Source: a virus. Taken from it: a DNA stretch of 36,008 nt. The position numbers were made by a program, and so were the translations under genes. A model generated the notes under the pieces. It was not told where the DNA came from. It did no database searches and saw only the letters and a list, made by a program, of their open reading frames with translations. The DNA lies in the UHGV virus genome UHGV-0138922; one strand, written 5' to 3'. Shown one piece after another: positions 1-35,391 of the stretch (the stretch's first letter is position 1; every line of letters starts with the position of its first letter).

Positions 1-26
1 CGACAGAGGATAGAAAACTCGTTCAT
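1..26 (-). CDS. ycdY: 5' end of host YcdY-like gene, partial (continues beyond window start)
   Basis: Minus-strand ATG at 24-26 reads MNEFSILCR...; host-like GC content; sits directly downstream of the YcdX-like stop codon. Confidence 0.45.
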
Positions 27-49
27 TAATATATTTCCATTACTAGTAA

Positions 50-391
50 TTAAAGGTCTGCAAATTCCGCAATCGGTGCCATACCGCGAGATTCAAGGAA
101 GTTCAGTAAGCGGCGCGGAGAAACATTCAAAATGCGCTCTGGCGGAAAATCTACCGCGTCGAGGATTTTAAGACACTCTTCAAATTCACCCATGGTAAAC
201 GCGGTGTGAGAATCCGAGCCTAATGCCACCCAACCTCCAGCGTCACGTACCGCTGCGGCTACCGCACGACAATTGTCTTCACTTCCCTTACGTGAGTGTA
301 AAAAAGAGGAATTATTGATTTCCAGCGCCACCTGATGTTTCGCGGCTGCTTCAGCAACGGCTTTAACATCTATTTCATATTTCGGATTGCC
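50..391 (-). pseudogene. ycdX: 3' fragment of PHP-family phosphoesterase gene (YcdX-like), truncated at the prophage junction
   Basis: ORF-track protein from [29 protein letters not shown] through the GSDSH motif to ...PIAEFADL looks like the C-terminal ~115 aa of a PHP-domain protein; the upstream 55 codons of the 170-aa ORF are AT-rich and antisense to gene 431-700; GC content drops sharply near 392. Confidence 0.6.
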
Positions 392-430
392 TAATATCAT
401 GTACCCACAATAACACGAGAGGATACAACG

Positions 431-700
431 ATGAACATTACCAAAGCAATCCATAACTATGCTCGCCGCCGTGGAATCGAACTTCAACTCGAAGATGAGC
501 AGGTTAGATTCTGGGAGACTGAACAAGATTGTGAATGGATGTTCAGCTATTCGATTGCTCAATGTGGTTGCTTGTTCTGGAAAGGTAATGTGTATCTTCC
601 CCGCGATATTAAAGAAGAACTTCCGGCGATGATTGGCACCGATAAGAAGTTAAAGGAAGTCTTAGATTTTATCCACAAAGAGTTTATTAGCAAGAAGTAA
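431..700 (+). CDS. Hypothetical 89-aa Cys-containing protein at prophage end
   Basis: ORF with GAGAGGA ribosome-binding site about 8 nt upstream of ATG 431; followed by a hairpin terminator. Confidence 0.55.
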
Positions 701-1657: not shown

Positions 1658-1677
1658 ACGCGGTAGGGGCTTTTTTG
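1641..1677 (+). terminator. Rho-independent terminator
   Basis: GCCCCTA...TAGGGGC stem followed by TTTTTTGTTT. Confidence 0.6.
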
Positions 1678-1689
1678 TTTGGAAATGGT

Positions 1690-3369
1690 ATGAAAACTAA
1701 ACTGTATTCGTATATTCGCTTCTCGTCTATGCGTCAGAATGATGGTTCGAGTTATGAACGACAAATCAGGATGGCTAGAGAGATTGCGGCAAAGTATGAC
1801 CTTGAACTGGTAAATGATTATCAGGATCTGGGTGTATCTGCGTTTAAGGGTGCTAACTCTAAAACAGGGGCGCTATCTCGTTTCCTTGATGCAATTGGTA
1901 GATCCGTTCCTGTTGGTAGCTGGCTATTCATCGAAAACTTGGACCGTTTATCCCGTGCCGATATTGTCAGTGCGCAGGAGTTATTCCTTTCAATCATCCG
2001 TAGGGGAATAACCATTGTTACTGGCATGGATAACAAGATCTACTCGCTGGATACTGTTACCGCTAATCCGATGGACCTGATGTTCTCCATCCTTTTATTC
2101 ATCCGTGGTAATGAGGAAAGCCAGACTAAGCGCAATCGTACTAACTCAAGCGCACTGATTAAGATTAAAGCCCATCAAGAAAATCCCCAGAATCCGGCAG
2201 TGGCAATCGAGGAAGTTGGAAAGAATATGTGGTGGACGGATACCACTTCCGGTTATGTGCTGCCTCATCCGGTGTACTTCCCTGTTGTTCAGGAGATTGT
2301 GGAATTACGGAAGAATGGACGTTCAACCGCCGAAATACTGGATCACCTTAACGAGACTTATACACCGCCACCAGCGGTTAGCAACAAGAAGCATTCAAAA
2401 TGGTCACGGGCAATGGTTGAAAGGTTGTTTCATACCCGCGCTTTGATTGGTATCAAGGAGGTCTCTGTAGATGGCGTTAACTATGAGTTAAAGGATTATT
2501 ACCCTCGTGTTATTGATGACCCTACGTTCTATCACCTTAAGAAAAATATTGGTGCTAGAGCATGGAACTTCGGAGACAAGGAAGAAGTTAAACCGATCCC
2601 CCTGCTTAGTGGTATTGGCCTATTGAAATGTGATCATTGCGGTTGCGCTATGGTTAAAGTGAAGGGAACGAACAAACGTTCTGACCAGTATCGTTATACA
2701 TGTGATGCGACCCGTTCACGTAGACTTGATTGCGAGCATCCAAACTGGAGTTTTCGAGGTGATCAATTAGAGAAAGCTGTATTGCAATTGCTGGCTGATA
2801 AAATCTGGATTGCTGAGGACAAGGCTAATCCGGTTCCGGCGTTGAAAGTACAGGTTGATGAAATATCACGCAAGATTGATAACCTGATTGCCCTTTCTGC
2901 TATGACAGGAGCAACGAAGGAGCTAGCCGATCAGATTACTACCCTCAATAGCGAGCGTGAAACACTCTACAATCAGATCAAGATGGCAGAAGAGGAAATG
3001 TATTCTGTTGACTCTCAAGGCTGGGAGAAGCTCGCAGAATTTGATTTAGAAGATGTTTACAACGAGGAACGACTAAAGGTCCGGTTTAAGATTAAGCAAG
3101 CTCTAAAGCGGATCGGGTGTAGCAGGATTGACAGAAACAAAAACTTGTTTGTACTGGAATACATCGATGGAAAGACCCAGAGAGTTGTAATAGAAAATTC
3201 AAGAGGAACGAGGAAAGGACAAATCTTTGTCGATTTGAAAACTATCAATGATAGGCAGATTCTGGAGAGTAACGGGCTTGTTCTGCATCCATGTTTAGAC
3301 ATGCTGACAGATAAGAACTGGAAACCAGAAGAGGAAATACCAGGTCCATTACAGGAATTTGGAATTTAA
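1690..3369 (+). CDS. Large serine recombinase (phage integrase)
   Basis: N-terminal resolvase-type catalytic motif YSYIRFSSMRQ; long recombinase domain; Cys-rich zinc-ribbon (CDHCGC...YRYTCD...C) and C-terminal coiled coil; ATG 1690 is the likely start (track start 1675 is TTG). Confidence 0.88.
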   Translation: MKTKLYSYIRFSSMRQNDGSSYERQIRMAREIAAKYDLELVNDYQDLGVSAFKGANSKTGALSRFLDAIGRSVPVGSWLFIENLDRLSRADIVSAQELFLSIIRRGITIVTGMDNKIYSLDTVTANPMDLMFSILLFIRGNEESQTKRNRTNSSALIKIKAHQENPQNPAVAIEEVGKNMWWTDTTSGYVLPHPVYFPVVQEIVELRKNGRSTAEILDHLNETYTPPPAVSNKKHSKWSRAMVERLFHTRALIGIKEVSVDGVNYELKDYYPRVIDDPTFYHLKKNIGARAWNFGDKEEVKPIPLLSGIGLLKCDHCGCAMVKVKGTNKRSDQYRYTCDATRSRRLDCEHPNWSFRGDQLEKAVLQLLADKIWIAEDKANPVPALKVQVDEISRKIDNLIALSAMTGATKELADQITTLNSERETLYNQIKMAEEEMYSVDSQGWEKLAEFDLEDVYNEERLKVRFKIKQALKRIGCSRIDRNKNLFVLEYIDGKTQRVVIENSRGTRKGQIFVDLKTINDRQILESNGLVLHPCLDMLTDKNWKPEEEIPGPLQEFGI

Positions 3370-3405
3370 GCGGCCTAAATCGACGTATAACGAGCTAAAA
3401 CAGTT

Positions 3406-3432
3406 AAGGGGTACTTCGTACCCCTTTTTAAT
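3406..3432. terminator. Bidirectional hairpin terminator between convergent genes
   Basis: AAGGGGTAC-ttcg-GTACCCCTT palindrome flanked by A-run and T-run. Confidence 0.6.
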
Positions 3433-3441
3433 TTAATTGCG

Positions 3442-4617
3442 TTAGAGAGCCTCTAAGAGAGTATTAAAGTATTCATCCATTAAATCAGGACTGTCGTCAT
3501 CAATACAGAAAAATTCCGGTTTATTGATGCCGTAGAAGTGAGTATGTAGCTTGAATGTATCGTCATCAAATACATCTTTCGGGGATACCCACATATTAGC
3601 CTCGTCCGGTTGATTGGTTAGGTAGTCATAAACCAGTTGCTGTAAGTGTGGTAACTCATCAATAGTCAGAGTTTCCGACCATCCATCCTTGAAATCTTTG
3701 TAGGGTGCTGCATGAGTCTTGAAGCGTTGTTTTACTTCATGCTCTAAATCAACGGCTTTCCAACCATCCTCAAACTCATGAGTAAAGATTAATCTGTGAG
3801 TGAAGTTGCTCTTTCTGGTTTGCTCTCTCATTCGTTCTTCTGGTTTCCGGGTAGTGATTCCAAATTTAATAAATTTGTCATCTAATAATTGAATGTAGAA
3901 ACTAGCCTTACCCTGATAAGTCCGGTTAGACAGTTGCACCAGTTGGTCTTTAATGCAAAGCGGACAAGTGAAAGAATCAGCACATCTTAAATGAGATTCC
4001 CATTCGTGGTTATGTGTCTTGCAATAGGTTTTAAATTTAACATCCTTTAGGTGTGGGGTGTTTATGATGAATCCTTTGAAGGTGTAAGGCGTACTCTCGC
4101 AACGTGCATTGATGATTGTCTCTTTGTCCTTAATAACTTCATCAAAAGTCTTGCCACTTCTTACCCGTTGGGATTTTTCAGCCATACAGATTTTGCAATC
4201 AAAATCGAAATCATCTTTGAGTGCATGTAATAGAGATGGCGTCATGATTTGATTGTGTTCAGGGCACAAAACACGGGCTTTCGTTCTATTTCGCCCTTTC
4301 CATTCTCCTTGCCATCCGAGGAATTTCTTTCCCTTCTCATTACAACGAGATTCCATTTTCAACCATACAGCCTTTTCAGTCTGGAATAACTCACCCCCGT
4401 TAGTATCTTCCAGTTTGCGTAATTTGTAGTCCTTATATTCTTGTGTATCTAAATTGTAGATTCGAAAGTAAGTGTGATTACCCTTCCACGGTAGGATAAA
4501 TCCACCAAATACGAAAGCAGGTTCCAGTTTAGCGATGATTCGTTGTTGGTACTCTTCCGGCGATAAACCGCGAGTTTTCTTAACAAAAGGAATTTCGGCA
4601 GCGTAAGCAAGTTTCAT
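3442..4617 (-). CDS. Zn-ribbon + GIY-YIG (T5orf172-like) nuclease-domain protein, 391 aa
   Basis: GIY-YIG-like motifs SFYIQ...KFGITTR...E; several CxxC pairs; start moved to the internal ATG at 4617, which has an AGAGGAAA ribosome-binding site (track start 4728 lacks one). Confidence 0.6.
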   Translation of the reverse strand: MKLAYAAEIPFVKKTRGLSPEEYQQRIIAKLEPAFVFGGFILPWKGNHTYFRIYNLDTQEYKDYKLRKLEDTNGGELFQTEKAVWLKMESRCNEKGKKFLGWQGEWKGRNRTKARVLCPEHNQIMTPSLLHALKDDFDFDCKICMAEKSQRVRSGKTFDEVIKDKETIINARCESTPYTFKGFIINTPHLKDVKFKTYCKTHNHEWESHLRCADSFTCPLCIKDQLVQLSNRTYQGKASFYIQLLDDKFIKFGITTRKPEERMREQTRKSNFTHRLIFTHEFEDGWKAVDLEHEVKQRFKTHAAPYKDFKDGWSETLTIDELPHLQQLVYDYLTNQPDEANMWVSPKDVFDDDTFKLHTHFYGINKPEFFCIDDDSPDLMDEYFNTLLEAL

Positions 4618-4676
4618 AGTAGTTTCCTCTAAAATAATAAGCTCACTACTATTTATTAGAGAAAATTGTCTTACTA

Positions 4677-4704
4677 TTGCATTCTCTATCTGAATGTGTA
4701 TAAT
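4677..4704 (+). promoter_or_regulatory. Sigma70-like promoter (TTGCAT-N16-TATAAT)
   Basis: Hexamers read directly from sequence, about 65 nt upstream of gene 4772. Confidence 0.45.
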
Positions 4705-4771
4705 ACGCGACCCTAAATCCCAAACCAACCATATTGAGGTTATGCCTATAAGTTAAAAAAGTGAGGTCTAT

Positions 4772-5341
4772 ATGATTCCAGTAATGGCTAAAGATATTGT
4801 TTTTACTCCTAAATCCTCCCGTGCTGTAACTCCATCGGCATTAGAACAACGCATTCTGACTCACATCAAAGAGAAGGACTTACCGTTAGTCTTTCATGGC
4901 TTTCTGGGTGAGTTTAAAGGGCTTCATTCAAGAATTGCTCTTACATGTACCCGATGCGGCAATAGAGCCGACAAATCAGCTACCAACCTGCTTAATGAAG
5001 GTAAACGCTGTGCATGTCTCAAAAGTGATTACTTTCAATATAAAGCGGGTGTGCCTTATCTCTATGTAATGAAATCAGGGGATATTGGTAAATTTGGTGT
5101 TACAAAGTCAATCATCAAGCGACGCATTAATCTGGGTGTACGCAATCCCGGTCATAACTTTGATATTGTCTTTGCTGGTGAAATGCCATCAATGAAACAT
5201 GCTTTAGCCACTGAAAGAGCAATAAAGAGATTACTGGATGTGGGTATAGGCGGGATTGAATACGGCAAAACTGAAACATTCCACTACTGCAATAAATCAC
5301 TAAACAATATAAAGAATATTGCAAGTGTGGAGTGGAACTAA
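4772..5341 (+). CDS. Zn-ribbon + GIY-YIG nuclease-like protein (189 aa), paralog of 3442-4617
   Basis: CxxC...CxC then PYLYVMKSGDIGKFGVTKS...R...E (GIY-YIG spacing); collinear similarity to the 391-aa protein. Confidence 0.65.
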   Translation: MIPVMAKDIVFTPKSSRAVTPSALEQRILTHIKEKDLPLVFHGFLGEFKGLHSRIALTCTRCGNRADKSATNLLNEGKRCACLKSDYFQYKAGVPYLYVMKSGDIGKFGVTKSIIKRRINLGVRNPGHNFDIVFAGEMPSMKHALATERAIKRLLDVGIGGIEYGKTETFHYCNKSLNNIKNIASVEWN

Positions 5342-6831
5342 TGCAAGATATTAAAATTCATTTTCAAGATTACAGTTTCGTTAAGGTTGATTGCTCTCCT
5401 TCTATCGGAATGGAATTAAGAGATTATTTCTCGTTTGAGGTTGAAGGGGCTAGATTTAGCCCCCGTTACAAGTATTCCGGCTGGGATGGAAAGATAAGAC
5501 TGTTTACGCATGAAAATACCTTGCCAATCGGATTATTGAAAACATTAGGTATCTTCGCTAAAAACATGGGCTATAGCGTATGGGTAGACCCCAGATTGCT
5601 TGAGAAGGAAGATGTAACCAAAGAATCAATTGATTCATGGATTGACTCTTTAGAAGTGTATTCCGGTAGCAATAAAATCAATCCTTACTGGTATCAAAGG
5701 GAGGCAGTATTTCAGGGTATCCATAATCGCCGTAGAATGCTGGTTCTTCCTACCAGTGCCGGAAAGTCATTGATTGCTTGTATGCTGTCTCGTTGGTACT
5801 TAGAGAACTACACCGGAAAGATTCTAATCATTGTCCCGACTACATCGCTGGTGGTTCAAATGAGGGATGATTTTGTCGATTATAGGCTATTCCCTTATGA
5901 AGCAATCCATACAATGATGAGTGGTAGCGGGAAACATCCGGGAGACAGGTTAATCACTGTTTCAACCTGGCAATCAGCTTGCAAGATGCCTCCTGAATGG
6001 TTCCGACAATATGGAATGTTGATAGTTGATGAATCACATCGCGCTAGTGCAAAGAATATCACCAATATCATCAACGGAATGAATCACTGTCAATTCAAGA
6101 TTGGTATGACTGGTTCCCCGAAAGAATCAAAGTGCCATCTCATGCAGTATGTCGGGTTGTTCGGTGATATTCAGAAGATAGTAGCAATCAAGCAATTGAT
6201 GGATGACGGACAAGTTACCCAGCTTAAAATTAATGCTCTCTTCCTTAAGTACAAAGATGAAGAATGTAAAGCAATGCGGGGCAAAGATTATCAGGAAGAG
6301 ATTAAATTCATCAATGCTCATAAGGTAAGGAATAAACTGGCTTGTAATTTGGCCTTAAAACTCGCCAGGAAGCAAGAAAACGTATTTTTGATGTTCCGGT
6401 ACTCTAAGCATGGAAAAATGCTTTATAATGCATTACAGCGCGTTTACGATAAGGTTTATTACGTTTCCAGTGAGATTACCACCGCCGAACGCGATGCCTT
6501 AAAGAAAATGGCTGAAAATGAGAAAGGATTGATTGTAGTTGCTAGCTATGGTGTTTTCTCTACTGGCGTTTCAATTAAGAATCTTCATCATGTTATTTTT
6601 GGTCATCCGGTGAAAGAATCGACCATTGTCCGGCAATCAATAGGACGTGCTCTTAGGAAACATGGTAGTAAGGCAATTGCTGTTGTATGGGATTTGATAG
6701 ATGTGATTTGTTCGAAAGACAAGAAAGGAAAATATACACGCAAGAATTATGCTTTAACTCATGGCCTCCAGAGAATCAATACTTACATATCAGATCGCTT
6801 CGAATATGCCACGAAAACAATCGAGATTTAA
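5341..6831 (+). CDS. uvsW: T4 UvsW-like SF2 (DExH) DNA helicase
   Basis: Walker A LPTSAGKS, motif II LIVDESH, motif III MTGSP, motif VI IGRALRKHG; N-terminal region MQDIKIHFQDYSFVKVDC...WDGKIRLF resembles the UvsW N-terminus as I recall it; ATG overlaps the upstream stop (TAATG); track alternative start is GTG 5332. Confidence 0.82.
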   Translation: MQDIKIHFQDYSFVKVDCSPSIGMELRDYFSFEVEGARFSPRYKYSGWDGKIRLFTHENTLPIGLLKTLGIFAKNMGYSVWVDPRLLEKEDVTKESIDSWIDSLEVYSGSNKINPYWYQREAVFQGIHNRRRMLVLPTSAGKSLIACMLSRWYLENYTGKILIIVPTTSLVVQMRDDFVDYRLFPYEAIHTMMSGSGKHPGDRLITVSTWQSACKMPPEWFRQYGMLIVDESHRASAKNITNIINGMNHCQFKIGMTGSPKESKCHLMQYVGLFGDIQKIVAIKQLMDDGQVTQLKINALFLKYKDEECKAMRGKDYQEEIKFINAHKVRNKLACNLALKLARKQENVFLMFRYSKHGKMLYNALQRVYDKVYYVSSEITTAERDALKKMAENEKGLIVVASYGVFSTGVSIKNLHHVIFGHPVKESTIVRQSIGRALRKHGSKAIAVVWDLIDVICSKDKKGKYTRKNYALTHGLQRINTYISDRFEYATKTIEI

Positions 6832-6836
6832 TAAAT

Positions 6837-6854
6837 AGGGGCTTTAATGCCCCT
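6837..6854 (+). terminator. Hairpin (AGGGGC-tttaat-GCCCCT), weak terminator or attenuator
   Basis: Stem-loop immediately after the helicase stop, followed by a T-rich tract. Confidence 0.35.
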
Positions 6855-6876
6855 TTATTCTACGGAGATTAAAAAA

Positions 6877-7128
6877 ATGATTAGCTTTAAACGTTTTTTG
6901 GTTGAGGCCGCGATCGACGGTTTCATGAGTAAGATTTATTCTTGTAATACTATCGAGGGATTAAATGAACTTGAGGCATATTATGAGAAGCGCAAGAAAG
7001 AAACAGAATTGAAACCTGCTGATGATATTTCGATCCGTGATGCCATCGCCGGACGACGCAAGCAACTGGAAGCGGAGAACGAGCCGGAAGACGATTTTTC
7101 TATCATCAATTTGTGCCAGATAAAATAA
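6877..7128 (+). CDS. Small acidic protein (83 aa)
   Basis: GGAG about 10 nt upstream of ATG 6877 (track start 6847 lacks a ribosome-binding site); followed by a strong terminator. Confidence 0.5.
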   Translation: MISFKRFLVEAAIDGFMSKIYSCNTIEGLNELEAYYEKRKKETELKPADDISIRDAIAGRRKQLEAENEPEDDFSIINLCQIK

Positions 7129-7130
7129 AA

Positions 7131-7153
7131 GCGCCCTTGTGAGGCGCTTTTTT
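7131..7153. terminator. Rho-independent terminator (usable from both strands)
   Basis: GCGCC-cttgtga-GGCGC then TTTTTTT; A-run on the other side. Confidence 0.7.
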
Positions 7154-7173
7154 TGTTATATGTGAATTGATGA

Positions 7174-7527
7174 TCAGCCATTCCATCGAGATTTTTTCGA
7201 CCTGCTATCAATATGCGTAAAGGTTTTATATTTGCCTAAGCCGTATTGAGTAGGATATTTCCCATCAAGATAAGCATGGACAATATCAGGGGAGACACCC
7301 TTGATCACAATGTCAGCCGCACGGCCTCGAACGTGATAGCTGTTGGTTGCACCGCCTACATTCTTGTTATGAGTCGGACAACGGTTCCCACTGTTAATAA
7401 TTACTGGTTTCCCGAAGTGCTCTCGTACATCCTCAAGAATTACCAGTAATTCAGCGTCGATTGTATCATAATCACATTTTCCGCATTTACATTTAAATTC
7501 CTTGCGAGAAAAATGTTTGCTTAACAT
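7174..7527 (-). CDS. Peptidase M15-family (zinc D,D/L,D-peptidase), candidate endolysin
   Basis: SRKEF...CKCGKC...NSGNRCP...SYHVRGRAADI...HID motif pattern typical of Peptidase_M15_3; GGGGGT ribosome-binding site. Confidence 0.7.
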   Translation of the reverse strand: MLSKHFSRKEFKCKCGKCDYDTIDAELLVILEDVREHFGKPVIINSGNRCPTHNKNVGGATNSYHVRGRAADIVIKGVSPDIVHAYLDGKYPTQYGLGKYKTFTHIDSRSKKSRWNG

Positions 7528-7536
7528 ATTACCCCC

Positions 7537-7884
7537 TTAGATCATTTCGAAGATATAACCAATAAAGCGCATACCCTTGATATAATAAGGAGCAGTGCCT
7601 ACACACACCGCGCGTGCATCACCCAGACAGTTAAAGCTATAAGGATTAACTACATCGACTTCTTGCCCTACACGAAAACGATATTTAGGACGTTTAGCCA
7701 ATGTAGCGACACAAAACACGGTCCCTTTTTCATGATCGCGGATACATTCTTTATATTGTTTATGTTTAACTCTCTTCGCCTCAAAATCATGTGTCATGGA
7801 TTCTGGGCTAATGCCATTAATAAAAATACCGGAAAGCTGGTCGACCGGATAAGTAGGAAATTCAGTGAAAATATTTTTAGCCAT
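7537..7884 (-). CDS. Hypothetical protein (115 aa)
   Basis: ORF in the operon, tightly spaced to the peptidase gene. Confidence 0.5.
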   Translation of the reverse strand: MAKNIFTEFPTYPVDQLSGIFINGISPESMTHDFEAKRVKHKQYKECIRDHEKGTVFCVATLAKRPKYRFRVGQEVDVVNPYSFNCLGDARAVCVGTAPYYIKGMRFIGYIFEMI

Positions 7885-7922
7885 GTTATACCCCCATAAG
7901 ATTCTATGAGGGTATTTATGGA

Positions 7923-18017: not shown

Positions 18018-18494
18018 TCAACCGCCAGTGGTAAACACTTCCTGTTTCAGCGGAGCACCATCAACAGCAAAGGTAAACTCTTTAGTTACCACTTCTTCAT
18101 CGCCACCGTTCATAGCAACTTTAGAAATAAAGCCGTTGTAAGCGATACGAATACCAGTCTGTTTGCCAGCGTCCACATAATATTCTACTTTGATTTGGCA
18201 GCGAGTGCCGTCTTCGGCAGCTTTTGCGAGCTTCTCGTGTACCGCATCACCTGGGATATAGTTAACGGTCAGAGTCAGATCTTCAACGTTCAGTTTACCA
18301 ACCAGCTTACGGTTATACTGAGAAGAATAGCTCTTAACTTCTACCGTCCCGCGAGACAAAGAATATTCAGGAAAACCAGCGCACTCTTTAATTTCTTCGT
18401 ATGCTTCATCAGCAAGATCGGTATTAGTGGTATCAGCGTGATAGAACAGACTTACCAGACCACCAGTAAAAATATCTTTGAATTGTTGAGACAT
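18018..18494 (-). CDS. Major tail (tube) protein
   Basis: 158 aa, immediately upstream of the G/T chaperones and tape measure gene; paralogous to the N-terminal part of 21920-22753. Confidence 0.6.
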   Translation of the reverse strand: MSQQFKDIFTGGLVSLFYHADTTNTDLADEAYEEIKECAGFPEYSLSRGTVEVKSYSSQYNRKLVGKLNVEDLTLTVNYIPGDAVHEKLAKAAEDGTRCQIKVEYYVDAGKQTGIRIAYNGFISKVAMNGGDEEVVTKEFTFAVDGAPLKQEVFTTGG

Positions 18495-18567: not shown

Positions 18568-21500
18568 TTATTCGTTTTCTACCCAGATTTCACGCGGAAC
18601 GAAGTTAGAATCTTGAATGTTCTTAAAGATTTTACCGCTAGAGTGAAGTTGGATTTTAATCCATCCACCGTTACCAGCCAGGTAATAGTTCCCGTCATTG
18701 GCAAAACGGATAAAATGGTTAAATCCTGCGGCGTCAAGAATCCACACATTACGGAAGCGGAGATCTTGTGGTAAACCTCCGGTCTGGGTATTACCAGGGA
18801 GAGTACCGGACCAGATTTTAGTACAACCTTTCGTCTTTTTGATATAACGACCGTCAAAGTTACCGTAATCAGTTGGTGTAACTCGACCAGTTACGTTTAC
18901 TGCTTTGTTTGCGGTGATTGCACCGGAAGTAAAACGCATTACTGCCACATTGTTAGCATATACATCTAAAATACCGTCGCCGTTTTGCTTAAAGCCAGTA
19001 TCACTATCACCCAAAACAATTGAGTTGCCACCTAATCCATTAGCAACGTTTACACCAAATGCGCTAATTTGCGGGGTAGTAACCTTACCAGAAACGTTCA
19101 AGTTTTGTGCGTTGATTTGTCCATTTACACTAAACTGAATCGCTGTAGTTCCTGGACCACCTGCACGCTGTGTATAGAAGTGCCAACCGCTTTCATCAGC
19201 CCACTCTAAAACCTGTTTACGATCAGCATTACCCCAAACACGACAGTTAAACGAGGATTGTGCTGTACCTTTACCCCATGTCAATTTACCACCAACTTCA
19301 AAGTCTCCTAAGAAGTTTGCTTTCAATCCACCAGTAGCCATATTACGCTCGGTGCTGAAATGACGTCCTTTGCTATCTTCCACATACAGGACGTTATCAC
19401 GACCGTTACTGCTATCACCCCAATGGTTAAAGCGAATAAAATCGCGGGATTGTCCAGCAAGTCCGGCTTCCATCGTTATATGCTGTCCAGTATTATATAA
19501 GTTACCGCCAGTATAAACATGTCCACCAAATCTAGCTGCTTTGCTTGCACCTTCTAAGGTCAATGCGGATTTATTGGAATCACCACCTAAATTAACGTTA
19601 CCGGAACTAAATTCATAAATGAATGGACGGTTTCCAGTCCAGCTACCCCATTTATCATTTTCGGCAGTAGACAGAAGATAGGTTTTAACACCATCATTTC
19701 GCCAGAATGCACCGTAATTACCGTAAATCATACGATATGCATCAGCGTTAGTTGAAATATATTGCCCGTTGGTATGGACAATTTTTGTTGCACCAACATT
19801 AAGAGAGATCTGACCGCTTTGTTCTAACGCAAAGTTGTTTTTACCAGCATCACTATAGATCTGGAATGCGTTAGTGTCGGCATTACCAAAACCAAACCAT
19901 GATTGACGAACGTTAGCACCGTTACGACGATCCCAATATTCAACAAGGTTACTATTCCCTGTCTGGCGTTCTAAACGAATATTACCACCATCAAGAACAG
20001 CACGACCAGTTTGCAGCGTGCGGTCGGTAATTTTAAGAACTTCGTTTGAGTCAGTAGTGCCAGTAGCTAGGCGGTACATGCTACCCTGAACAGTTTCATG
20101 CCAAATAGTATGACCTGATTTACTACGGAACTGACGAAGATATTTTTTACCATCACCAGTATCATTACACAAACTGATAATATCGTAAGTTCCCTGTGTA
20201 TTATCATCAAAACGAATAGTTCCGGCTTTGTTCTCTGTGTTAAACATGGTAATTACTTTACCATCAGTAACACCAGTGGACGGCTTAACGAGAGTTATTT
20301 CAGGAACGTCATGTACCGTCAGTGTAACATCGTTAGTTTTACCATATTCGACAATAACGTTATCAGTATAACGACCGTAGTTAACGTAGATATCGTAGTT
20401 ATCACCGGAAGTGTTAACCGCAAATACTTGATGAATATTTTTAGCATTTCGACGATAAGCCGCAATACTAACGCCTTTCGGGTTATTGTTACCGGAACGG
20501 ATAACAATTTCTACAAAATCAACCTGATCATAGGAGTTAACGTTATAGCCGTTACCACCGAAGATACGAAGCATTACCATTCGACCATTCTGTGGGATCG
20601 TGGCGGTTGCAATCTTGAAATAACCACGAGAAGCATCACCAGCAGGAACAGACATTTTAACGTTCTTAATGAACATCTGGTCTACTGCGGCCTTGCTATA
20701 CACACCCAATTCATCGGGAGTCGGCTTATCCCCTTCGTGATACATGCGGTAACTGAATCGCTTATTACCATCTTTATCAAAGCCATAGGTTTTAACCTGA
20801 GATGAGCTAGACCCATAATGGAACTCAAAACCGCGACCGTGAGCTTTACCGCCAGAATGAGGAATGTTCAGGATCAAGTTACCCCATCCTTCGGCATTAT
20901 TCGGACGAAACGCACCAAAATAATCAAGGTTACGTGCGCCAGCATCATCAAAGTAGTTAGCTGTTTTGGTTAACAGATACCCGTGATGATAGGTATTGGT
21001 ATTCTTCTTGATGTAAATTGCATCGTTGCTACCTTCAATACCATCAATTCGCTGGTTAGCTGCGGCAATCGCTGCATCGGTGGCAGATTTATTTTGGTCT
21101 ACCTTGTTGTTAATTGCGGTGTGGTTGCTATTAACAGTGCCAGTAAGGTTACTGATTTTAGTATCAGCGTCTTTCTTGTTATTTGCTACCGTGGTTTCAA
21201 TAGCCGATTTGTTGGACGCAACCGTGCTAGTTAAGCTAGAGATCTTGCTATCAGCATCAGACTTGTTAGCGGTAACAGTCTTAGTTAAGTTGCTAACGTT
21301 AGTGTTAGTGGTATCAACTCGGCTATTAATTGCGGTGTTATTGTCAGTAACCGTAGTGGTTAAAGCTGTGATTTTGTTGTCCGCATCTCGTTTGTTATTA
21401 GCTACGGTAGTTTCAATAGCTGATTTGTTTGCCGAAACTGTCCCCGTAAGGTTATTGATCTTGGTGTCAGCGTCGGTTTTATTTGCCGTGACTGTCTGGG

Positions 21501-21846
21501 TTAAGTTACTAACAGTGGTGTTAGTAGCATCAATGCGCTTATTGGTTGCGGTGTCTTTAGTGGTAATGGTGTTATTCAGTTCAGATTTAGCGGTAGCCAG
21601 AGCGTTAGCAGCTTCGGTTTTATTTGCCGCGATAGTAGAATCAGTAGTTTTCTTGTTATTGTCTACTTTTGTGTTTAAAGCATTATGACTTTCAGGAGAA
21701 ACACTTACTTGAACTACTGCGTTATTTTTATCTTTGGTATAAATTACATGGTCTGCCATCTGAATAGCGATTTCACCGACCTGTAATTGTTCCGGCGTTG
21801 GCTTTTTACCAGCCGTCTGTGTGCGTTTAAATTGGATTGATTGCAT
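18568..21846 (-). CDS. Tail fibre protein (1092 aa) with N-terminal Thr/Asn-rich repeat shaft
   Basis: N-terminal KPTPEQLQVGE-type motif, tandem ~66-aa repeats, Gly-rich C-terminal region; GTGAGGTG ribosome-binding site. Confidence 0.7.
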   Translation of the reverse strand: MQSIQFKRTQTAGKKPTPEQLQVGEIAIQMADHVIYTKDKNNAVVQVSVSPESHNALNTKVDNNKKTTDSTIAANKTEAANALATAKSELNNTITTKDTATNKRIDATNTTVSNLTQTVTANKTDADTKINNLTGTVSANKSAIETTVANNKRDADNKITALTTTVTDNNTAINSRVDTTNTNVSNLTKTVTANKSDADSKISSLTSTVASNKSAIETTVANNKKDADTKISNLTGTVNSNHTAINNKVDQNKSATDAAIAAANQRIDGIEGSNDAIYIKKNTNTYHHGYLLTKTANYFDDAGARNLDYFGAFRPNNAEGWGNLILNIPHSGGKAHGRGFEFHYGSSSSQVKTYGFDKDGNKRFSYRMYHEGDKPTPDELGVYSKAAVDQMFIKNVKMSVPAGDASRGYFKIATATIPQNGRMVMLRIFGGNGYNVNSYDQVDFVEIVIRSGNNNPKGVSIAAYRRNAKNIHQVFAVNTSGDNYDIYVNYGRYTDNVIVEYGKTNDVTLTVHDVPEITLVKPSTGVTDGKVITMFNTENKAGTIRFDDNTQGTYDIISLCNDTGDGKKYLRQFRSKSGHTIWHETVQGSMYRLATGTTDSNEVLKITDRTLQTGRAVLDGGNIRLERQTGNSNLVEYWDRRNGANVRQSWFGFGNADTNAFQIYSDAGKNNFALEQSGQISLNVGATKIVHTNGQYISTNADAYRMIYGNYGAFWRNDGVKTYLLSTAENDKWGSWTGNRPFIYEFSSGNVNLGGDSNKSALTLEGASKAARFGGHVYTGGNLYNTGQHITMEAGLAGQSRDFIRFNHWGDSSNGRDNVLYVEDSKGRHFSTERNMATGGLKANFLGDFEVGGKLTWGKGTAQSSFNCRVWGNADRKQVLEWADESGWHFYTQRAGGPGTTAIQFSVNGQINAQNLNVSGKVTTPQISAFGVNVANGLGGNSIVLGDSDTGFKQNGDGILDVYANNVAVMRFTSGAITANKAVNVTGRVTPTDYGNFDGRYIKKTKGCTKIWSGTLPGNTQTGGLPQDLRFRNVWILDAAGFNHFIRFANDGNYYLAGNGGWIKIQLHSSGKIFKNIQDSNFVPREIWVENE
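21140..21565 (-). repeat. Tandem coding repeats (~200 bp unit, ~2 copies, with ~22-codon sub-periodicity) inside the fibre gene
   Basis: Protein repeats VSNLTQTVTANKTDADTKINNLTGTVSANKSAIETTVANNKRDADNKITAL... / VSNLTKTVTANKSDADSKISSLTSTVASNKSAIETTVANNKKDADTKISNL... Confidence 0.7.
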
Positions 21847-21919: not shown

Positions 21920-22753
21920 TCAGTATTCCCCGAAGTCGATTCTATCAGTCTTAGCAACCGCATTAATTTCGGCTGGCGTTGGCTTCTCATTTGTTGTATA
22001 GACTTTAATCCATTCCGATTTTCCGTTGTCCTGAATATTTCGTACCCGCAAACGTGGAGCACCGGAAGTATTACACGTTAATTGCCATGCGCCATGCTCA
22101 TTAGCTTGAAGATGAATTAACGATGTATCAGCACCATAAGGGTTAGTGCTAGCCGTTCCTTTGTAGGTTACGAAGCGGTTTCCTGTCAGAGATTCACTAT
22201 CAATAGGTCCGGTGAAAGGATTTACACCAGCGCCCAGACCAAAATCACCCTGACGCAAGATCCGGCCTTCGGTTGCAATACCCCTTGCAAGAATCCCGCC
22301 ATCTGGTTCTAGTTTGAATTCCATAGTTACAGCTTTGTTATCACCGCCACGAGTTTTATGGCTAGTGACATAAGCATCATAAATGACATAGTAACCAGTG
22401 TTAGCAGCACTATAGCCAGAGTTCACAACATAGAACATTCTAAAGCGCAAAGGTGTTTTATCCTCTACGGCTTTCATCAACATTGCTTGATGTTCGTCGT
22501 CAAGAACACGGTTTACTGTGAGCGTAGTCGGTTCAAGTTTGCGATAGCCAGCCAGCTTACCAGTCGCATCATGATCATACTCTTCGTAAGTCTCGATCTC
22601 GGTTGATTCTGTCAGCGTAGGAAAGGCTGCGATGTTCTCCATACCACTAAAGCTAGGATCGAAAAAGTCGACCTGATTGTCTAGCTGGTTAGAGATCGAC
22701 ACTTCAACATGCGACCCCGTAAAAATATCTAAGTTATCATGTGTAATATTCAT
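21920..22753 (-). CDS. Tail tube-like protein with extra C-terminal domain (277 aa), paralog of the major tail protein
   Basis: Shares DIFTG, LTLTVN and VDG/EPDG blocks with 18018-18494; C-terminal ~120 aa additional. Confidence 0.55.
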   Translation of the reverse strand: MNITHDNLDIFTGSHVEVSISNQLDNQVDFFDPSFSGMENIAAFPTLTESTEIETYEEYDHDATGKLAGYRKLEPTTLTVNRVLDDEHQAMLMKAVEDKTPLRFRMFYVVNSGYSAANTGYYVIYDAYVTSHKTRGGDNKAVTMEFKLEPDGGILARGIATEGRILRQGDFGLGAGVNPFTGPIDSESLTGNRFVTYKGTASTNPYGADTSLIHLQANEHGAWQLTCNTSGAPRLRVRNIQDNGKSEWIKVYTTNEKPTPAEINAVAKTDRIDFGEY

Positions 22754-23609: not shown

Positions 23610-25613
23610 TCATTCAGCGCCAATCTGAAGAACTTTCAGAGCTTCCGGCTGAGTAACAACATAATCCAGATCTACCCAGATACGCGGAACGATAGCAGAC
23701 TGTGCACGGTAGGTAGTGTCGTCCATATCCAATTCCAGACCGCCCCACTCACCGATAGTGATGCCGGAGAAGTCACCCAGAACGATGTGATCTGCCGGAA
23801 TAACACCAGAAGTAACTACTTCGTAACCAGCCAGTTTGCCGTTTTCGATGATATAACCGGAAACGCCGTTATCTTTCAGGGTAGATTCCAGTTCGGCAGC
23901 AGTTGCACCGCTCATCGCAAACTTGATCGCCTGAGCAGGAACGCCAGCGTCGGTCAGTTTAGCAATTTCTTTCAGGAAATCTTTGTAAGAGAAAGCAGCT
24001 TTCTTCTCAACGCGGCTAGCGTCTACCAGTTGCTTAACCAGACCAGCCGGACCACGAGCATTTTCTTTGTCAGACAGAATCAGTTGTTCCAGTTTGATAC
24101 GAACAGCTTTGTTAATGTGGTCAGTGATCAGGGTAGCGATACCCGGAACGGTTTTCAGAGACTGACGGCTAATCGGGTTGCCACCAGCGAAAGTCTTAGG
24201 AGACAGTTTCACGTTCGCAAATTCAGCTTTGCTTTCCGGCGCAGCACCGTTTTCATCAACGAAGCCGAAAGCATCAACGCTGGATTTAGTCATTTTTGGA
24301 ATAGCAGTCGGAGAAGTCAAGCCACTATAAACAGTCACACCCAGACGACCCAGAACAGATTCCGGCATCAGCATTTCGATGTAGGATTCAGTCATCAGTT
24401 TTTCGTCGGTGATAGCAGTCAGATCGGCTTTGGTGTTACCAGCAGCAGCAGCACGCATAGCAGCAGCCGGAACGAATACAGAGCCACCACGAGCAGCACG
24501 ACCACGCTGCATAGTTGCAGTAGCAGCCATTGCAGAAAACTCGGCTTCGTTAGCACCCAGAGCTTCACCATCTACCAGAGAGCGAATTACGTTGTTCAGG
24601 TCAAAAGTTTTTTCCATTTTAGAGTCCTTAATTTGTTCGTTATTACGTTGAGCATTGGTAATGTTATTTAGTGCCTTAGTGCGGAATGCTTCCGGCGTCA
24701 TATCTTTAACTGCCAATGCGCGTTTTAATTCTTCGTCGTCAATATTTAGTTCGCGTGCAATTTCGCGAATTTCTAATTCGTCTTCTTCGGAACGTTCAGC
24801 CACTTCAATTTTTTCTTCTTCAACCGGAGCAGCTTCACGTTCTTCTGTCATTTCTTCTTCTTCCCGAACAGTTCCACGATCATCATCAGAACTTTCAGAA
24901 TGTTCAGCGTCTTTTCCGTCTTCGAGATTTTCATTTTCTTCATTCTCTTCAACTTGGCGCTCTTGAGTTTCTTCTACTTCCGGTTCTTTATTTTCTTCTA
25001 CCGGAGTTTCTTCAACCTGAGCGACTTCTTTTTCTTCGTCTTTAACTTGTTCGATTTGTTCTTTAGTCATATCGCGTTTAGCCTCCAAATTAACTGTGAT
25101 AGTATTTAGAGAGCGATTTAGACCGACAGAATCGTCTGCGGGCACAGACACCCATGAAATCTCATGAGGAATCCACTTAGTAACAATCAATTGTCCTTTA
25201 GCGTAATCGATGTGATATTCTTTAATGTCATAACCGACAGAAATTTTTTCCATCGTACCTTCAATGACTTTATTACGAATATCATTAGCCAAAGTACCAT
25301 GCTTAGAGAATTTAACAGTAGCACGGCCTACTTTATCCGCATCGATTCGAGCGTTACAGACAACACCAATGTGATTATCGAAATTATGATTGAACAGCAA
25401 CGGAGCGTTATTATTCAGGCGAGACAGATCAACCGCTTCCGGTGTATGTAACAGAATTTCATCTAATACCACCATCTCTTGATTTTGCTCATCCCAGAAT
25501 TGGCGCTGGTAAGGCTGTTCACTGGAGAAAGCAATTTCAAATTCGTATTGATCGTTATGCCCTTCGTTAATAACTCCACCGTAACCGTTAAGATCGCGGC
25601 GAAATTTAAGCAT
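23610..25613 (-). CDS. Prohead protease - acidic scaffold-like linker - HK97-fold major capsid protein (single 667-aa ORF)
   Basis: N-terminus resembles HK97-type prohead protease (LLFNHNFDNHIG, ISVGYD, HEISWVSVPAD); ~150-aa Glu-rich linker; C-terminal ~330 aa HK97-like capsid domain; AAGGTGA ribosome-binding site. Confidence 0.8.
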   Translation of the reverse strand: MLKFRRDLNGYGGVINEGHNDQYEFEIAFSSEQPYQRQFWDEQNQEMVVLDEILLHTPEAVDLSRLNNNAPLLFNHNFDNHIGVVCNARIDADKVGRATVKFSKHGTLANDIRNKVIEGTMEKISVGYDIKEYHIDYAKGQLIVTKWIPHEISWVSVPADDSVGLNRSLNTITVNLEAKRDMTKEQIEQVKDEEKEVAQVEETPVEENKEPEVEETQERQVEENEENENLEDGKDAEHSESSDDDRGTVREEEEMTEEREAAPVEEEKIEVAERSEEDELEIREIARELNIDDEELKRALAVKDMTPEAFRTKALNNITNAQRNNEQIKDSKMEKTFDLNNVIRSLVDGEALGANEAEFSAMAATATMQRGRAARGGSVFVPAAAMRAAAAGNTKADLTAITDEKLMTESYIEMLMPESVLGRLGVTVYSGLTSPTAIPKMTKSSVDAFGFVDENGAAPESKAEFANVKLSPKTFAGGNPISRQSLKTVPGIATLITDHINKAVRIKLEQLILSDKENARGPAGLVKQLVDASRVEKKAAFSYKDFLKEIAKLTDAGVPAQAIKFAMSGATAAELESTLKDNGVSGYIIENGKLAGYEVVTSGVIPADHIVLGDFSGITIGEWGGLELDMDDTTYRAQSAIVPRIWVDLDYVVTQPEALKVLQIGAE

Positions 25614-30345: not shown

Positions 30346-30380
30346 TATTGAGAATTCACTATTGTTTGGAGGAAACTACT

Positions 30381-30605
30381 ATGACTACTAAAGCTACTCG
30401 CGGACGTCCTTGCCGTTTTGATCGTGAACAACTGGCAGCGATTGTAAAAGCGTACTATCAAGCACCGAAAGGTAAAGCTGAAAAAGAGCAAGTATTGAGT
30501 GAACACGGTATTTCAATCGCTCAATTCTACAAATCACTCCATAAAGTTGATTTGAAATTCTTTGTTCAGGTTGACGGTGAAATGGTAGAAGCAACAGGAA
30601 TTTGA
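30381..30605 (+). CDS. Small HTH-like protein (74 aa), paralog family member
   Basis: MTTKATRGRPCRFDREQLAAIVKAYY...EHGISIAQFYKSLHKV; GGAGG ribosome-binding site upstream of ATG 30381. Confidence 0.55.
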   Translation: MTTKATRGRPCRFDREQLAAIVKAYYQAPKGKAEKEQVLSEHGISIAQFYKSLHKVDLKFFVQVDGEMVEATGI

Positions 30606-30613
30606 TTCTCTAG

Positions 30614-30640: not shown

Positions 30641-30654
30641 ATACCTACAGATAC

Positions 30655-35386: not shown

Positions 35387-35391
35387 AAAAA

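What the first reader, a model, noticed from the sequence alone, without database searches (positions are those of the whole stretch)
5332..7128. T4 UvsW-like helicase translationally coupled to a GIY-YIG protein
The helicase start overlaps the upstream stop (TAATG). The protein has SF2 motifs and an N-terminal domain that I recall as strongly resembling T4 UvsW, a branch-migration helicase of T-even phages. This is a T4-type recombination/replication gene in an otherwise lambda/HK97-type genome, which indicates a mosaic replication module.
Basis: partly seen in the sequence, partly recalled or inferred. Interest (0 to 1): 0.4.

Follow-up and report, generated by a model that had tools for sequence, protein, structure and literature searches.

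The report
T4-type UvsW helicase cassette in prophage
A rare E. coli prophage carries a genuine copy of the phage T4 recombination helicase UvsW, next to two selfish nuclease genes, and a 300-base stretch of it was copied recently from a virulent T4-like phage, which is direct evidence that a dormant and a virulent phage exchanged DNA.

Summary
ORF 5341-6831 starts at the ATG of a TAATG overlap with the upstream stop codon. It is a full-length UvsW orthologue: T4 UvsW structure 2OCA E=1.9e-185, and Pfam UvsW_N. ORF 6877-7128 is UvsW.1. The upstream 189-aa ORF is a CapR zinc-finger plus T5orf172-type GIY-YIG nuclease, and a 392-aa paralogue lies on the other strand.

The host genome is a ~37 kb siphovirus-like prophage with a serine integrase, inserted in ycdX of E. 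coli. It has no recognisable replication module. The cassette sits between the integrase and the endolysin and is bounded by terminators.

uvsW is a conserved gene of this prophage family in E. coli and Salmonella, under purifying selection (dN/dS about 0.2). Its closest phage relatives are Krischvirus (RB49-like) phages, at 72-76% amino-acid identity.

The locus is a recombination hot spot. Window 6793-7098 (uvsW 3' end, hairpin, uvsW.1) is 96% identical to RB49, against 68% for the rest of uvsW (p=1.5e-29). Sister prophages carry nothing, a uvsY fragment, full uvsY, or gene 51/27 fragments at this place.

The layout parallels T4 segE-uvsW. The most likely role is a branch-migration helicase for the prophage's own recombination and replication. 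An anti-T4 role, or a role for the nucleases in driving the exchange, remains possible.

The parts
1..445 (.). E. coli chromosomal flank: end of ycdY and the 3' fragment of ycdX, which the prophage disrupts
   Evidence: 5411 of 5426 E. coli genomes match this end of the window. The PSJ-22 annotation shows truncated ycdX at both prophage ends.
1675..3369 (+). Large serine recombinase (prophage integrase)
   Evidence: phrog_95 integrase 2.1e-63. Resolvase, Recombinase and Zn_ribbon_recom domains in sister loci.
3406..3426 (.). Bidirectional terminator-like hairpin; left boundary of the cassette
   Evidence: Terminator scan, 9-bp stem with 5 GC pairs on both strands.
3442..4620 (-). 392-aa CapR + MUG113/T5orf172 (GIY-YIG superfamily) homing-endonuclease-like gene
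   Evidence: Pfam CapR 4.1e-10 and MUG113 3.7e-6. phrog_681 endonuclease 1.8e-43. RefSeq names it 'GIY-YIG nuclease family protein'. It is absent, leaving a 27-nt remnant, in UTAK-14 and ES2.
4621..4771 (.). Divergent intergenic region with a perfect TATAAT -10 element; probable promoter region for both nuclease genes and uvsW
   Evidence: Read from the sequence. The consensus promoter scan did not report it because the -35 element is weak. Promoter function is an inference.
4772..5341 (+). 189-aa CapR zinc finger (CxxC...CxC) + GIY-YIG (T5orf172-like) nuclease gene; its stop overlaps the uvsW start
5341..6831 (+). uvsW: SF2 branch-migration, RNA-DNA and DNA-DNA helicase orthologue (496 aa)
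   Evidence: PDB 2OCA E=1.9e-185. Pfam UvsW_N 2.9e-35. 72-76% aa identity to Krischvirus UvsW and 54% to a Tequatrovirus UvsW. dN/dS 0.17-0.23 among prophage alleles.
6793..7098 (+). Recent Krischvirus-derived patch: last 39 nt of uvsW, intergenic hairpin, and uvsW.1 up to its last sense codon
   Evidence: Maximum chi-square breakpoint at 6793. Identity to RB49 is 67.6% to the left and 95.7% to the right, Fisher p=1.5e-29. 94-96% identity to all 54 Krischvirus records. Absent from all 17 complete E. coli genomes that carry the prophage uvsW.
6837..6854 (+). Terminator-like hairpin between uvsW and uvsW.1, inherited with the Krischvirus patch
   Evidence: Terminator scan. The intergenic region 6832-6876 has no substitution against RB49, only a 2-nt indel in an A run. 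Annotated as 'terminator' in Krischvirus records.
6877..7128 (+). uvsW.1 (83 aa), with 9 extra C-terminal codons read from prophage DNA because the junction removed the original stop codon
   Evidence: Pfam UvsW-1 9.1e-22. Protein comparison and junction GATTTTT|CTATC. The identical 83-aa product occurs in the same context on at least 7 contigs, spanning at least three separate samples or assemblies.
7127..7151 (.). Bidirectional terminator; right boundary of the cassette, facing the endolysin gene
   Evidence: Terminator scan, 9-10 bp stem followed by a T run on both strands.
7174..7527 (-). Peptidase M15 endolysin; first gene of the prophage lysis and tail block (context)
   Evidence: Pfam Peptidase_M15_3 1.1e-27. 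phrog_894 endolysin 1.9e-45.

Best explanation
Window 3406-7151 is an autonomous, terminator-bounded cassette of a ~37 kb temperate, siphovirus-like prophage integrated in ycdX. It encodes two CapR/T5orf172 GIY-YIG homing-endonuclease-like proteins, a catalytically intact orthologue of the T4-type helicase UvsW, and its small partner UvsW.1.

Shown: the identity of each protein. uvsW is conserved and under purifying selection throughout this prophage family in E. coli and Salmonella, including copies that have lost both nuclease genes. Its phage relatives are Krischvirus (RB49-like) T4-type phages. The locus is mosaic, and a ~300-bp patch carrying uvsW.1 was acquired much more recently from a Krischvirus than uvsW itself.

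Inferred: the helicase works as in T4. It would be an ATP-driven branch-migration, fork-regression, R-loop and D-loop unwinding and strand-annealing enzyme, here serving the prophage's own recombination-dependent replication or concatemer formation and repair during lytic growth. It would take the place of the Red/RecET/Erf plus Rus-type functions that other temperate phages carry.

Also inferred: the adjacent nucleases behave like T4 SegE, which sits upstream of uvsW and cuts uvsW. They would make breaks in or near uvsW of a co-resident homologous genome, and repair of those breaks would produce the observed gene-conversion tracts between the prophage and infecting Krischviruses.
For: Identity: UvsW, UvsW.1, intact motifs I, II, III and VI; GIY-YIG fold and invariant catalytic-type residues.

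Fixation and selection: uvsW is present in all 17 prophage-bearing complete E. coli genomes and at the same ycdX locus in Salmonella. It is intact in the nuclease-less copies UTAK-14 and ES2. dN/dS is 0.17-0.23.

Lineage: prophage and Krischvirus UvsW form one clade at 65-94% aa identity, apart from other Straboviridae at 53-58%.

Mosaicism: against PSJ-22, the window's flanks are 97-100% identical but uvsW 6150-6750 is about 70%. Against FDAARGOS_1267, the flanks are about 90% but uvsW is 97-99%. The breakpoint at 6793 has p=1.5e-29. The content downstream of uvsW varies between copies: nothing, uvsW.1, a uvsY fragment, full uvsY, or uvsY plus two gene 51/27 fragments at 96-98% identity to two Krischvirus lineages.

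Not an artefact: the same arrangement occurs on at least 7 contigs, spanning at least three separate samples or assemblies.

Precedent: segE lies between inh and uvsW in T4 and targets uvsW (PMC2988022). SegE-like genes occupy that site in Krischvirus G5211 and contig L012. T5orf172/CapR homing endonuclease genes mark boundaries of genetic exchange between phages (PMC10448857). A recurrent boundary lies at about window 5234, at the 3' end of the 189-aa gene. It is the deletion junction in UTAK-14, the start of the high-identity tract with FDAARGOS_1267, and the start of the C-terminal stretch (from about residue 167) that stays identical in nuclease alleles only 42-47% identical overall.

T4 UvsW activities are summarised in PMC5180179. 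No other DNA replication or recombination enzyme was recognised in the element.
Against: There is no expression or biochemical data. It is not known whether the cassette is transcribed in the lysogen or only after induction. The T4 partners of UvsW (UvsX, gp32, gp59) are absent, and UvsY is absent from this window. Several right-arm ORFs have no detectable family and might encode an ordinary replication initiator, in which case UvsW would be accessory. Nuclease activity and target sites are untested. The 189-aa protein is small and could be a domesticated DNA-binding regulator, as PLE CapR is (PMC8096241, found; my reading of its title and abstract). Its position next to the integrase, between terminators, is also typical of accessory 'moron' or defence genes. 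From my own knowledge, not tested here: wild-type T4 UvsW is reported to be toxic when over-expressed in E. coli.
Confidence: 0.6

Rival explanations
1. The cassette is an anti-phage (superinfection exclusion) module directed at T4-like phages. The prophage nucleases would cut the uvsW region of an incoming Krischvirus, as in homing-type marker exclusion. In addition or instead, prophage UvsW made before the invader's late phase would unwind the R-loops that prime T4-type origin replication.
For: The cassette is terminator-bounded, next to the integrase, and has its own divergent promoter region, which is the usual place for prophage accessory genes. The locus has clearly met Krischvirus DNA repeatedly. 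The prophage tail fibre shares a gp37-like region with Krischviruses at 62-67% aa identity, suggesting the same hosts and receptors. Domesticated CapR/T5orf172 proteins act against a lytic phage in the PLE/ICP1 system (PMC8096241, PMC10448857). UvsW activity changes the outcome of defence, since Shedu escape mutants map to uvsW (PMC13434031). The idea that UvsW regulates T4 origin replication by unwinding R-loops rests only on the title of Dudas & Kreuzer 2001, seen in the reference list of PMC5180179.
Against: No PADLOC defence model fits beyond generic helicase similarity; the best hit is PbeA at 6.7e-14 over the helicase core only. uvsW is retained under purifying selection in copies that lost both nucleases. 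There is no evidence of expression in the lysogen. The recombination patches show that Krischvirus DNA survived long enough to recombine.
Confidence: 0.2
2. uvsW is passive cargo. It would be a T4-derived fragment that hitch-hiked into the prophage with selfish homing endonuclease genes and persists by co-conversion, with no benefit to the prophage.
For: Homing endonucleases co-convert flanking markers (PMC2988022; PMC10448857). Non-functional T4-like debris does accumulate at this locus: a uvsY fragment and gene 51/27 fragments.
Against: Every copy examined has an intact ORF, with dN/dS about 0.2 and conserved catalytic motifs. uvsW is retained where the nucleases were deleted. It is conserved across E. 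coli and Salmonella copies whose flanking genes have diverged to about 60-85% nucleotide identity.
Confidence: 0.1
3. The uvsW.1 patch is a chimeric mis-assembly of prophage and contaminating Krischvirus reads.
For: There is an abrupt change in identity, and none of the 17 complete RefSeq E. coli genomes with the prophage uvsW has the patch.
Against: The identical 83-aa read-through product, in the same gene order, occurs on at least 7 contigs, spanning at least three separate samples or assemblies (SRR5050585, SRR12692943, GCA_014704045.1). These include prophage copies with a different nuclease allele. The right junction uses the same native nucleotide as the uvsY fragment junction of FDAARGOS_1267.
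Confidence: 0.02

Closest known systems
Phage T4 UvsW (PDB 2OCA, 1RIF) and UvsW of Krischvirus RB49
   Same: Full-length colinear orthologue with the N-terminal UvsW_N domain, two RecA-like SF2 domains and motifs I, II (DExH), III and VI. It is followed by uvsW.1, as in T4-type phages. Identity is 72-76% aa to Krischvirus UvsW and about 54% to a Tequatrovirus UvsW.
   Different: It resides in a ~37 kb temperate, integrase-bearing, siphovirus-like prophage rather than a ~165 kb virulent myovirus. UvsX, gp32, gp59 and T4-type transcription signals are missing. Its flanks are an integrase and an endolysin rather than inh, hoc and uvsY.
T4 segE-uvsW free-standing homing endonuclease arrangement
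   Same: A GIY-YIG-superfamily nuclease gene lies immediately upstream of uvsW on the same strand. It shows presence/absence polymorphism among otherwise near-identical genomes, and recombination tract boundaries lie at its 3' end.
   Different: The nuclease here is a CapR zinc-finger + T5orf172-type protein with no BLASTP similarity to the SegE-like protein of G5211. There are two divergently transcribed paralogues. Cleavage of uvsW was not shown.
CapR/T5orf172 homing endonuclease genes of ICP1-like vibriophages and PLE CapR (PMC10448857, PMC8096241)
   Same: Same domain pair: a CxxC...CxC zinc finger plus a T5orf172/MUG113 domain. Same location at boundaries of genetic exchange, and the same exchange between a lytic phage and an integrated element.
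   Different: A different host, different phages and a different target gene. Whether the proteins are active nucleases or domesticated DNA binders is unknown.
E. coli RecG and phage T5 D10 (functional analogues of UvsW)
   Same: SF2 branch-migration helicases acting on forks, Holliday junctions and R-loops. D10 is a distant UvsW relative in a non-T4 phage (PMC5180179).
   Different: RecG and D10 are not orthologues. D10 shares only 20-30% identity with UvsW. The protein here is a true UvsW.

Membership tests
UvsW helicase (T4-type) | N-terminal UvsW_N domain (PF21241) | tested here: met
   E=2.9e-35, 121 bits against a cut-off of 25.3; residues 3-83 cover the whole 81-position model.
UvsW helicase (T4-type) | SF2 core with intact Walker A lysine, DExH, motif III and motif VI | tested here: met
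   PTSAGKS at 137, DESH at 230, TGS at 257, QSIGRALR at 432. These positions are invariant in an 18-sequence alignment.
UvsW helicase (T4-type) | Full-length colinearity with the solved T4 UvsW structure, and a closer match to UvsW than to other SF2 helicases | tested here: met
   2OCA E=1.9e-185 over residues 3-495; the next family (XPB) scores 2e-14.
UvsW helicase (T4-type) | Linkage to uvsW.1 and/or uvsY, as in T4-type genomes | tested here: met
   uvsW.1 lies 45 nt downstream here. uvsY is downstream in Salmonella and other E. coli copies of the prophage.
UvsW helicase (T4-type) | ATP-dependent branch migration, R-loop unwinding and strand annealing | not testable with these tools
   Needs purified protein, or complementation of a T4 uvsW or E. 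coli recG mutant.
UvsW.1 | PF11637 domain in a small protein encoded directly after uvsW | tested here: met
   E=9.1e-22. 66 of the first 66 residues are identical to RB49 UvsW.1. The C-terminal acidic tail is shortened and followed by 9 foreign residues.
GIY-YIG superfamily, T5orf172/MUG113 branch (189-aa ORF 4772-5341) | GIY-YIG fold (beta-beta-alpha-beta-alpha core) | tested here: met
GIY-YIG superfamily, T5orf172/MUG113 branch (189-aa ORF 4772-5341) | Conserved Tyr-x-Tyr, Lys/Tyr-x-Gly, Arg and Glu catalytic-type residues | tested here: met
   Y96, Y98, G106, K107, G109, R117 and E148 are invariant in 11 family members down to 42% identity.
GIY-YIG superfamily, T5orf172/MUG113 branch (189-aa ORF 4772-5341) | Direct Pfam T5orf172 or MUG113 hit | tested here: inconclusive
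   No Pfam nuclease hit for this protein at E<=0.01. A 73%-identical homologue carries PF10544. The 392-aa paralogue hits MUG113 at 3.7e-6. Both align to the same part of phrog_681.
Free-standing homing endonuclease gene | Presence/absence polymorphism at a fixed site between conserved genes | tested here: met
   UTAK-14 and ES2 lack both genes and keep short remnants. Other copies carry alleles only 42-47% identical at the same site.
Free-standing homing endonuclease gene | Site-specific cleavage of the endonuclease-less allele, and homing | not testable with these tools
   Requires cleavage assays and mixed-infection crosses.
   None was found by PHROGs or Pfam in the window and none is named in the annotation of the complete sister prophage. 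The neighbours are an integrase and an endolysin.
Known anti-phage defence systems (PADLOC) | Match to a defence-system protein model beyond generic helicase similarity | tested here: not met
   Only partial helicase-core hits for UvsW (PbeA 6.7e-14, Cas3, HamB). No hits for the nucleases or UvsW.1.

The most novel reading that the evidence does not exclude
The nuclease-uvsW cassette is an active interface for gene flow between a temperate prophage and virulent T4-type (Krischvirus) phages. The prophage's CapR/T5orf172 nucleases would cut the uvsW region of infecting Krischviruses, or Krischvirus SegE-like enzymes would cut the prophage copy. The shared uvsW homology would then serve as the anchor for break repair. 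This would repeatedly load T4-type DNA (uvsW.1, uvsY, gene 51/27 pieces) into the prophage and possibly push prophage alleles into the virulent phage. It would act as a cross-lifestyle homing system and perhaps double as exclusion of T4-like phages.
Probability: 0.25. Interest if true: 0.7.

Novelty: new member of a known kind. Interest (0 to 1): 0.42.

Why it matters
UvsW is treated as a hallmark of virulent T4-type phages. Here it is a fixed, selected gene of a temperate prophage family that has no other recognisable replication or recombination enzyme. That raises the question of how this phage replicates, and whether UvsW can work with host RecA and SSB.

The locus also gives unusually clean, datable evidence of DNA exchange between a virulent myovirus lineage and a temperate siphovirus-like prophage. 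A 96%-identical patch sits next to a gene whose synonymous sites are saturated. The exchange happens at a site where homing-endonuclease-like genes sit, as in the T4 segE-uvsW paradigm.

The system is experimentally tractable: E. coli lysogens plus RB49-like phages. It could be used to test nuclease-driven gene flow across phage lifestyles.

Tried and rejected
- A generic DEAD-box RNA helicase is rejected. The best solved relative by 170 orders of magnitude in E-value is T4 UvsW.
- The GTG start at 5332 is rejected in favour of ATG 5341. The N-terminus MQDI is conserved in all homologues.
- ATG 6847 as the start of uvsW.1 is rejected. It lies inside the hairpin, whereas 6877 has a GGAG and matches the RB49 UvsW.1 start.
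- NCBIfam gave no family for either nuclease or for UvsW.1.
- PADLOC gave no defence assignment.
- A search for replication genes in the right arm (29.7-36 kb) found only a Rha/Ant-like regulator.
It was not found.
- A scan of 185,579 species-representative genomes for other chromosomal UvsW genes returned only three strong loci. All three are T4-like phage contigs with inh, hoc, uvsY or gene 25-27 neighbours. The scan is pattern-based, so its sensitivity is limited.
- Literature searches for UvsW in prophages or temperate phages found no report of this arrangement in the held library.
- I looked by eye for a LexA box in the intergenic region 4621-4771 and saw none. No tool was used.
Full report
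OBSERVATION

The sequence is as described. ORF 4772-5341 ends with TAA at 5339-5341, and the helicase ORF begins at ATG 5341-5343, giving a TAATG overlap. The GTG at 5332 that opens the mechanical ORF is not the start, because all homologues begin MQDI. A GGAG lies 8 nt upstream of the ATG. The same 107-nt leader is kept in prophage copies that lack the upstream gene. Translational coupling is therefore possible but not required.

WHAT THE GENES ARE

The 496-aa product is a true UvsW.
- Pfam UvsW_N scores 2.9e-35 over residues 3-83, followed by ResIII, DEAD and Helicase_C.
- The T4 UvsW structure 2OCA aligns colinearly over residues 3-495 at E=1.9e-185. The next solved family (XPB) is at 2e-14.
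- Motifs I (PTSAGKS), II (DESH), III (TGS) and VI (QSIGRALR) are intact and invariant across 18 diverse UvsW proteins.

ORF 6877-7128 is UvsW.1 (PF11637 9.1e-22; phrog_1143 2e-35).

The upstream 189-aa protein has a CapR zinc finger (CxxC...CxC; motif as described in PMC10448857) and a C-terminal GIY-YIG domain.
- It matches phrog_681 'endonuclease' at 6e-19.
- A 73%-identical homologue carries PF10544 T5orf172.
- Y96, Y98, G106, K107, G109, R117 and E148 are invariant in the family.

A 392-aa paralogue (CapR 4e-10, MUG113 3.7e-6) is transcribed divergently from 4620 to 3442.

GENOMIC SETTING

The window is an E. coli chromosome end (ycdY and a 3' fragment of ycdX) followed by almost all of a ~37 kb prophage.
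- It encodes a large serine recombinase, the cassette, an M15 endolysin, a tail tip protein, a tape measure protein, tail tube proteins, a gp37-like fibre, a protease-capsid fusion, a portal, a lambda gpA-type terminase and a Rha/Ant-like regulator.
- 17 of 5426 complete E. coli genomes carry its uvsW.
- The same element sits at the same ycdX site in Salmonella enterica.
- IMG/VR lists it as 34-45 kb proviruses.
- Apart from uvsW, nothing in the window has a nucleotide match in 50,697 phage records. The capsid protein is at most 43% identical to any isolated phage.
- No replication initiator, primase, replicative helicase or polymerase is recognisable in the window, and none is named in the complete sister prophage.
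- The cassette lies between bidirectional terminators at 3406-3426 and 7127-7151. It has its own 151-bp divergent intergenic region (sequence).

ORIGIN AND EVOLUTION

Prophage UvsW proteins (65-94% identical to the window's) and Krischvirus (RB49-like) UvsW (72-76%) form one clade. Other Straboviridae are at 53-58%. T4-type synteny (inh-uvsW-uvsW.1-uvsY.-2-uvsY) identifies the T4-type lineage as the source.

The gene is functional in the prophage. All copies examined are intact, and dN/dS is 0.17-0.23. It is also retained where both nuclease genes were deleted. UTAK-14 and ES2 keep only the first 27 nt of one nuclease gene and the last 107 nt of the other.

The locus is strongly mosaic.
- Against the PSJ-22 prophage, the window is 97-100% identical in the flanks. 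Identity falls to 87-95% over 5400-6150 and to about 70% over 6150-6750.
- Against FDAARGOS_1267, the flanks are about 90% identical but uvsW is 97-99%.

Most striking is the patch at the 3' end. Synonymous sites between the window's uvsW and RB49 uvsW are saturated (pS 0.74), and nucleotide identity is 67.6%. From position 6793 to 7098, identity jumps to 95.7%. It is 98.4% over 6799-7049, and the intergenic hairpin region has no substitution (maximum chi-square breakpoint, Fisher p=1.5e-29). All 54 Krischvirus records match this patch at 94-96%.

The patch carries the last 39 nt of uvsW, the terminator-like hairpin and uvsW.1. Its right junction (GATTTTT|CTATC) removes the uvsW.1 stop codon, so 9 foreign codons are appended.

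None of the 17 complete genomes has this patch. PSJ-22 goes straight from uvsW to the terminator. The identical 83-aa product in the same gene order occurs on at least 7 contigs, spanning at least three separate samples or assemblies. It is therefore not a chimeric assembly.

Other copies of the prophage hold other T4-type pieces at this place:
- a uvsY 3' fragment, joined to the same native nucleotide (FDAARGOS_1267);
- a complete uvsY (Salmonella);
- uvsY plus two tandem ~275-bp copies of the gene 51/27 junction, one 96-97% identical to RB49 and G5211 and the other 98% identical to a different Krischvirus lineage.

uvsW thus seems to act as a homology anchor through which Krischvirus DNA repeatedly enters the prophage.

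ROLE OF THE NUCLEASE GENES

In T4, the free-standing GIY-YIG gene segE lies between inh and uvsW and targets uvsW (PMC2988022). SegE-like genes occupy this site in Krischvirus G5211 and in contig L012.

The prophage has an unrelated GIY-YIG-superfamily gene of T5orf172 type at the equivalent place. It has no BLASTP similarity to the G5211 protein.

T5orf172/CapR genes are putative homing endonucleases that sit at boundaries of genetic exchange between phages, and between ICP1 and its PLE satellite (PMC10448857; PMC8096241).

Here, a recurrent boundary lies at about 5234, at the 3' end of the 189-aa gene. It is the deletion junction in UTAK-14 and ES2. It is the start of the high-identity tract with FDAARGOS_1267. 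It is also the start of the C-terminal stretch (from about residue 167) that stays identical in nuclease alleles only 42-47% identical overall. This fits nuclease-stimulated exchange, but cleavage was not tested.

MECHANISM

Shown: a catalytically intact, selected UvsW orthologue with UvsW.1, in an autonomous cassette of a temperate prophage, exchanging DNA with Krischviruses.

Inferred from established T4 biology (branch migration of Holliday junctions, D-loop stabilisation for recombination-dependent replication, and reactivation of stalled forks, as summarised in PMC5180179; R-loop unwinding rests only on the title of Dudas & Kreuzer 2001 in that paper's reference list): the protein most likely serves the prophage's own recombination-dependent replication, concatemer formation and repair after induction.

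Rivals:
- A defence or exclusion module against T4-like phages. The position, the repeated contact with Krischvirus DNA, the shared gp37-like fibre and the UvsW-Shedu link speak for it. The lack of any PADLOC match and the retention of uvsW without the nucleases speak against it.
- Passive cargo of selfish nucleases. This is contradicted by purifying selection.
- An assembly artefact. This is refuted.

NOVELTY AND VERDICT

The proteins belong to known families. The segE-like layout is a known theme. Mosaicism is expected in phages.

What is new is the setting. A T4-hallmark recombination helicase is fixed in a temperate enterobacterial prophage family with no other recognisable replication or recombination enzyme. 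Patches from a virulent phage genus are recent and sharply delimited.

I found no report of this in the literature library. A pattern scan of 185,579 species-representative genomes found no other chromosomal UvsW; its three strong hits are T4-like phage contigs.

This is a new member of a known kind in an unusual context, of moderate interest.

Noticed in passing
window 18568-21846 (-): The 1092-aa tail-fibre protein has residues 290 to about 930 that are 62-67% identical to gp37 (long tail fibre distal subunit) of Krischvirus phages such as RB49, Cognac and Whisky. This is a second module shared with the same virulent genus as uvsW. The gene lies between two tail-tube paralogues (18018-18494 and 21920-22753).
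   Followed up: partly
L024-L026 (E. coli prophage variants), locus coordinates 7103-8124: These copies carry a complete uvsY (135 aa) after uvsW. They also carry two tandem ~275-bp copies of the Krischvirus gene 51/27 junction, one 96-97% identical to RB49 and G5211 and the other 98% identical to a different Krischvirus lineage (L012). The same T4-type segment was apparently captured twice.
   Followed up: partly
L004 (E. coli FDAARGOS_1267) 4720-4887; window ~7098-7100: A 55-codon uvsY 3' fragment (RefSeq names it 'recombination mediator protein UvsY') is joined to prophage DNA at the same native nucleotide (CTATC...) as the uvsW.1 patch of the window. This suggests either a preferred illegitimate-joining point or descent from a longer ancestral insert by internal deletion.
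   Followed up: partly
window 29743-36008: The right arm of the prophage holds about nine ORFs with no Pfam or PHROG family, apart from a Rha/Ant-like regulator at 30688-31515. It also holds a low-GC stretch (0.34 at 33-34 kb). No replication gene is recognisable anywhere in the ~37 kb element, so how it replicates is open.
   Followed up: partly
window 1-700 and L013 24896-25300: The prophage is inserted in ycdX (zinc-binding phosphatase), between ycdY and ghrA, by a large serine recombinase (1675-3369). The same site is used in Salmonella enterica.
   Followed up: partly
L002 (Krischvirus G5211) 3265-5503: G5211 carries a SegE-like GIY-YIG gene directly upstream of uvsW. Its uvsW is only about 70% identical in nucleotides to RB49 over the first ~1000 nt, but 95-99% after that. 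This is a conversion-tract-like gradient next to the nuclease gene, inside the virulent genus itself.
   Followed up: no
window 23610-25613 (-): The 667-aa major head protein appears to be a protease-capsid fusion (phrog_617 and phrog_4523 'major head and protease protein'). Its nearest isolated relative is Escherichia phage DCP80 (141 kb record) at 43% aa identity.
   Followed up: no
window 7050-7098: RB49-type uvsW.1 ends with about two copies of a 12-nt repeat (GAGCCGGAAGAG). The window has lost one copy, which shortens the acidic C-terminal tail before the read-through.
   Followed up: no
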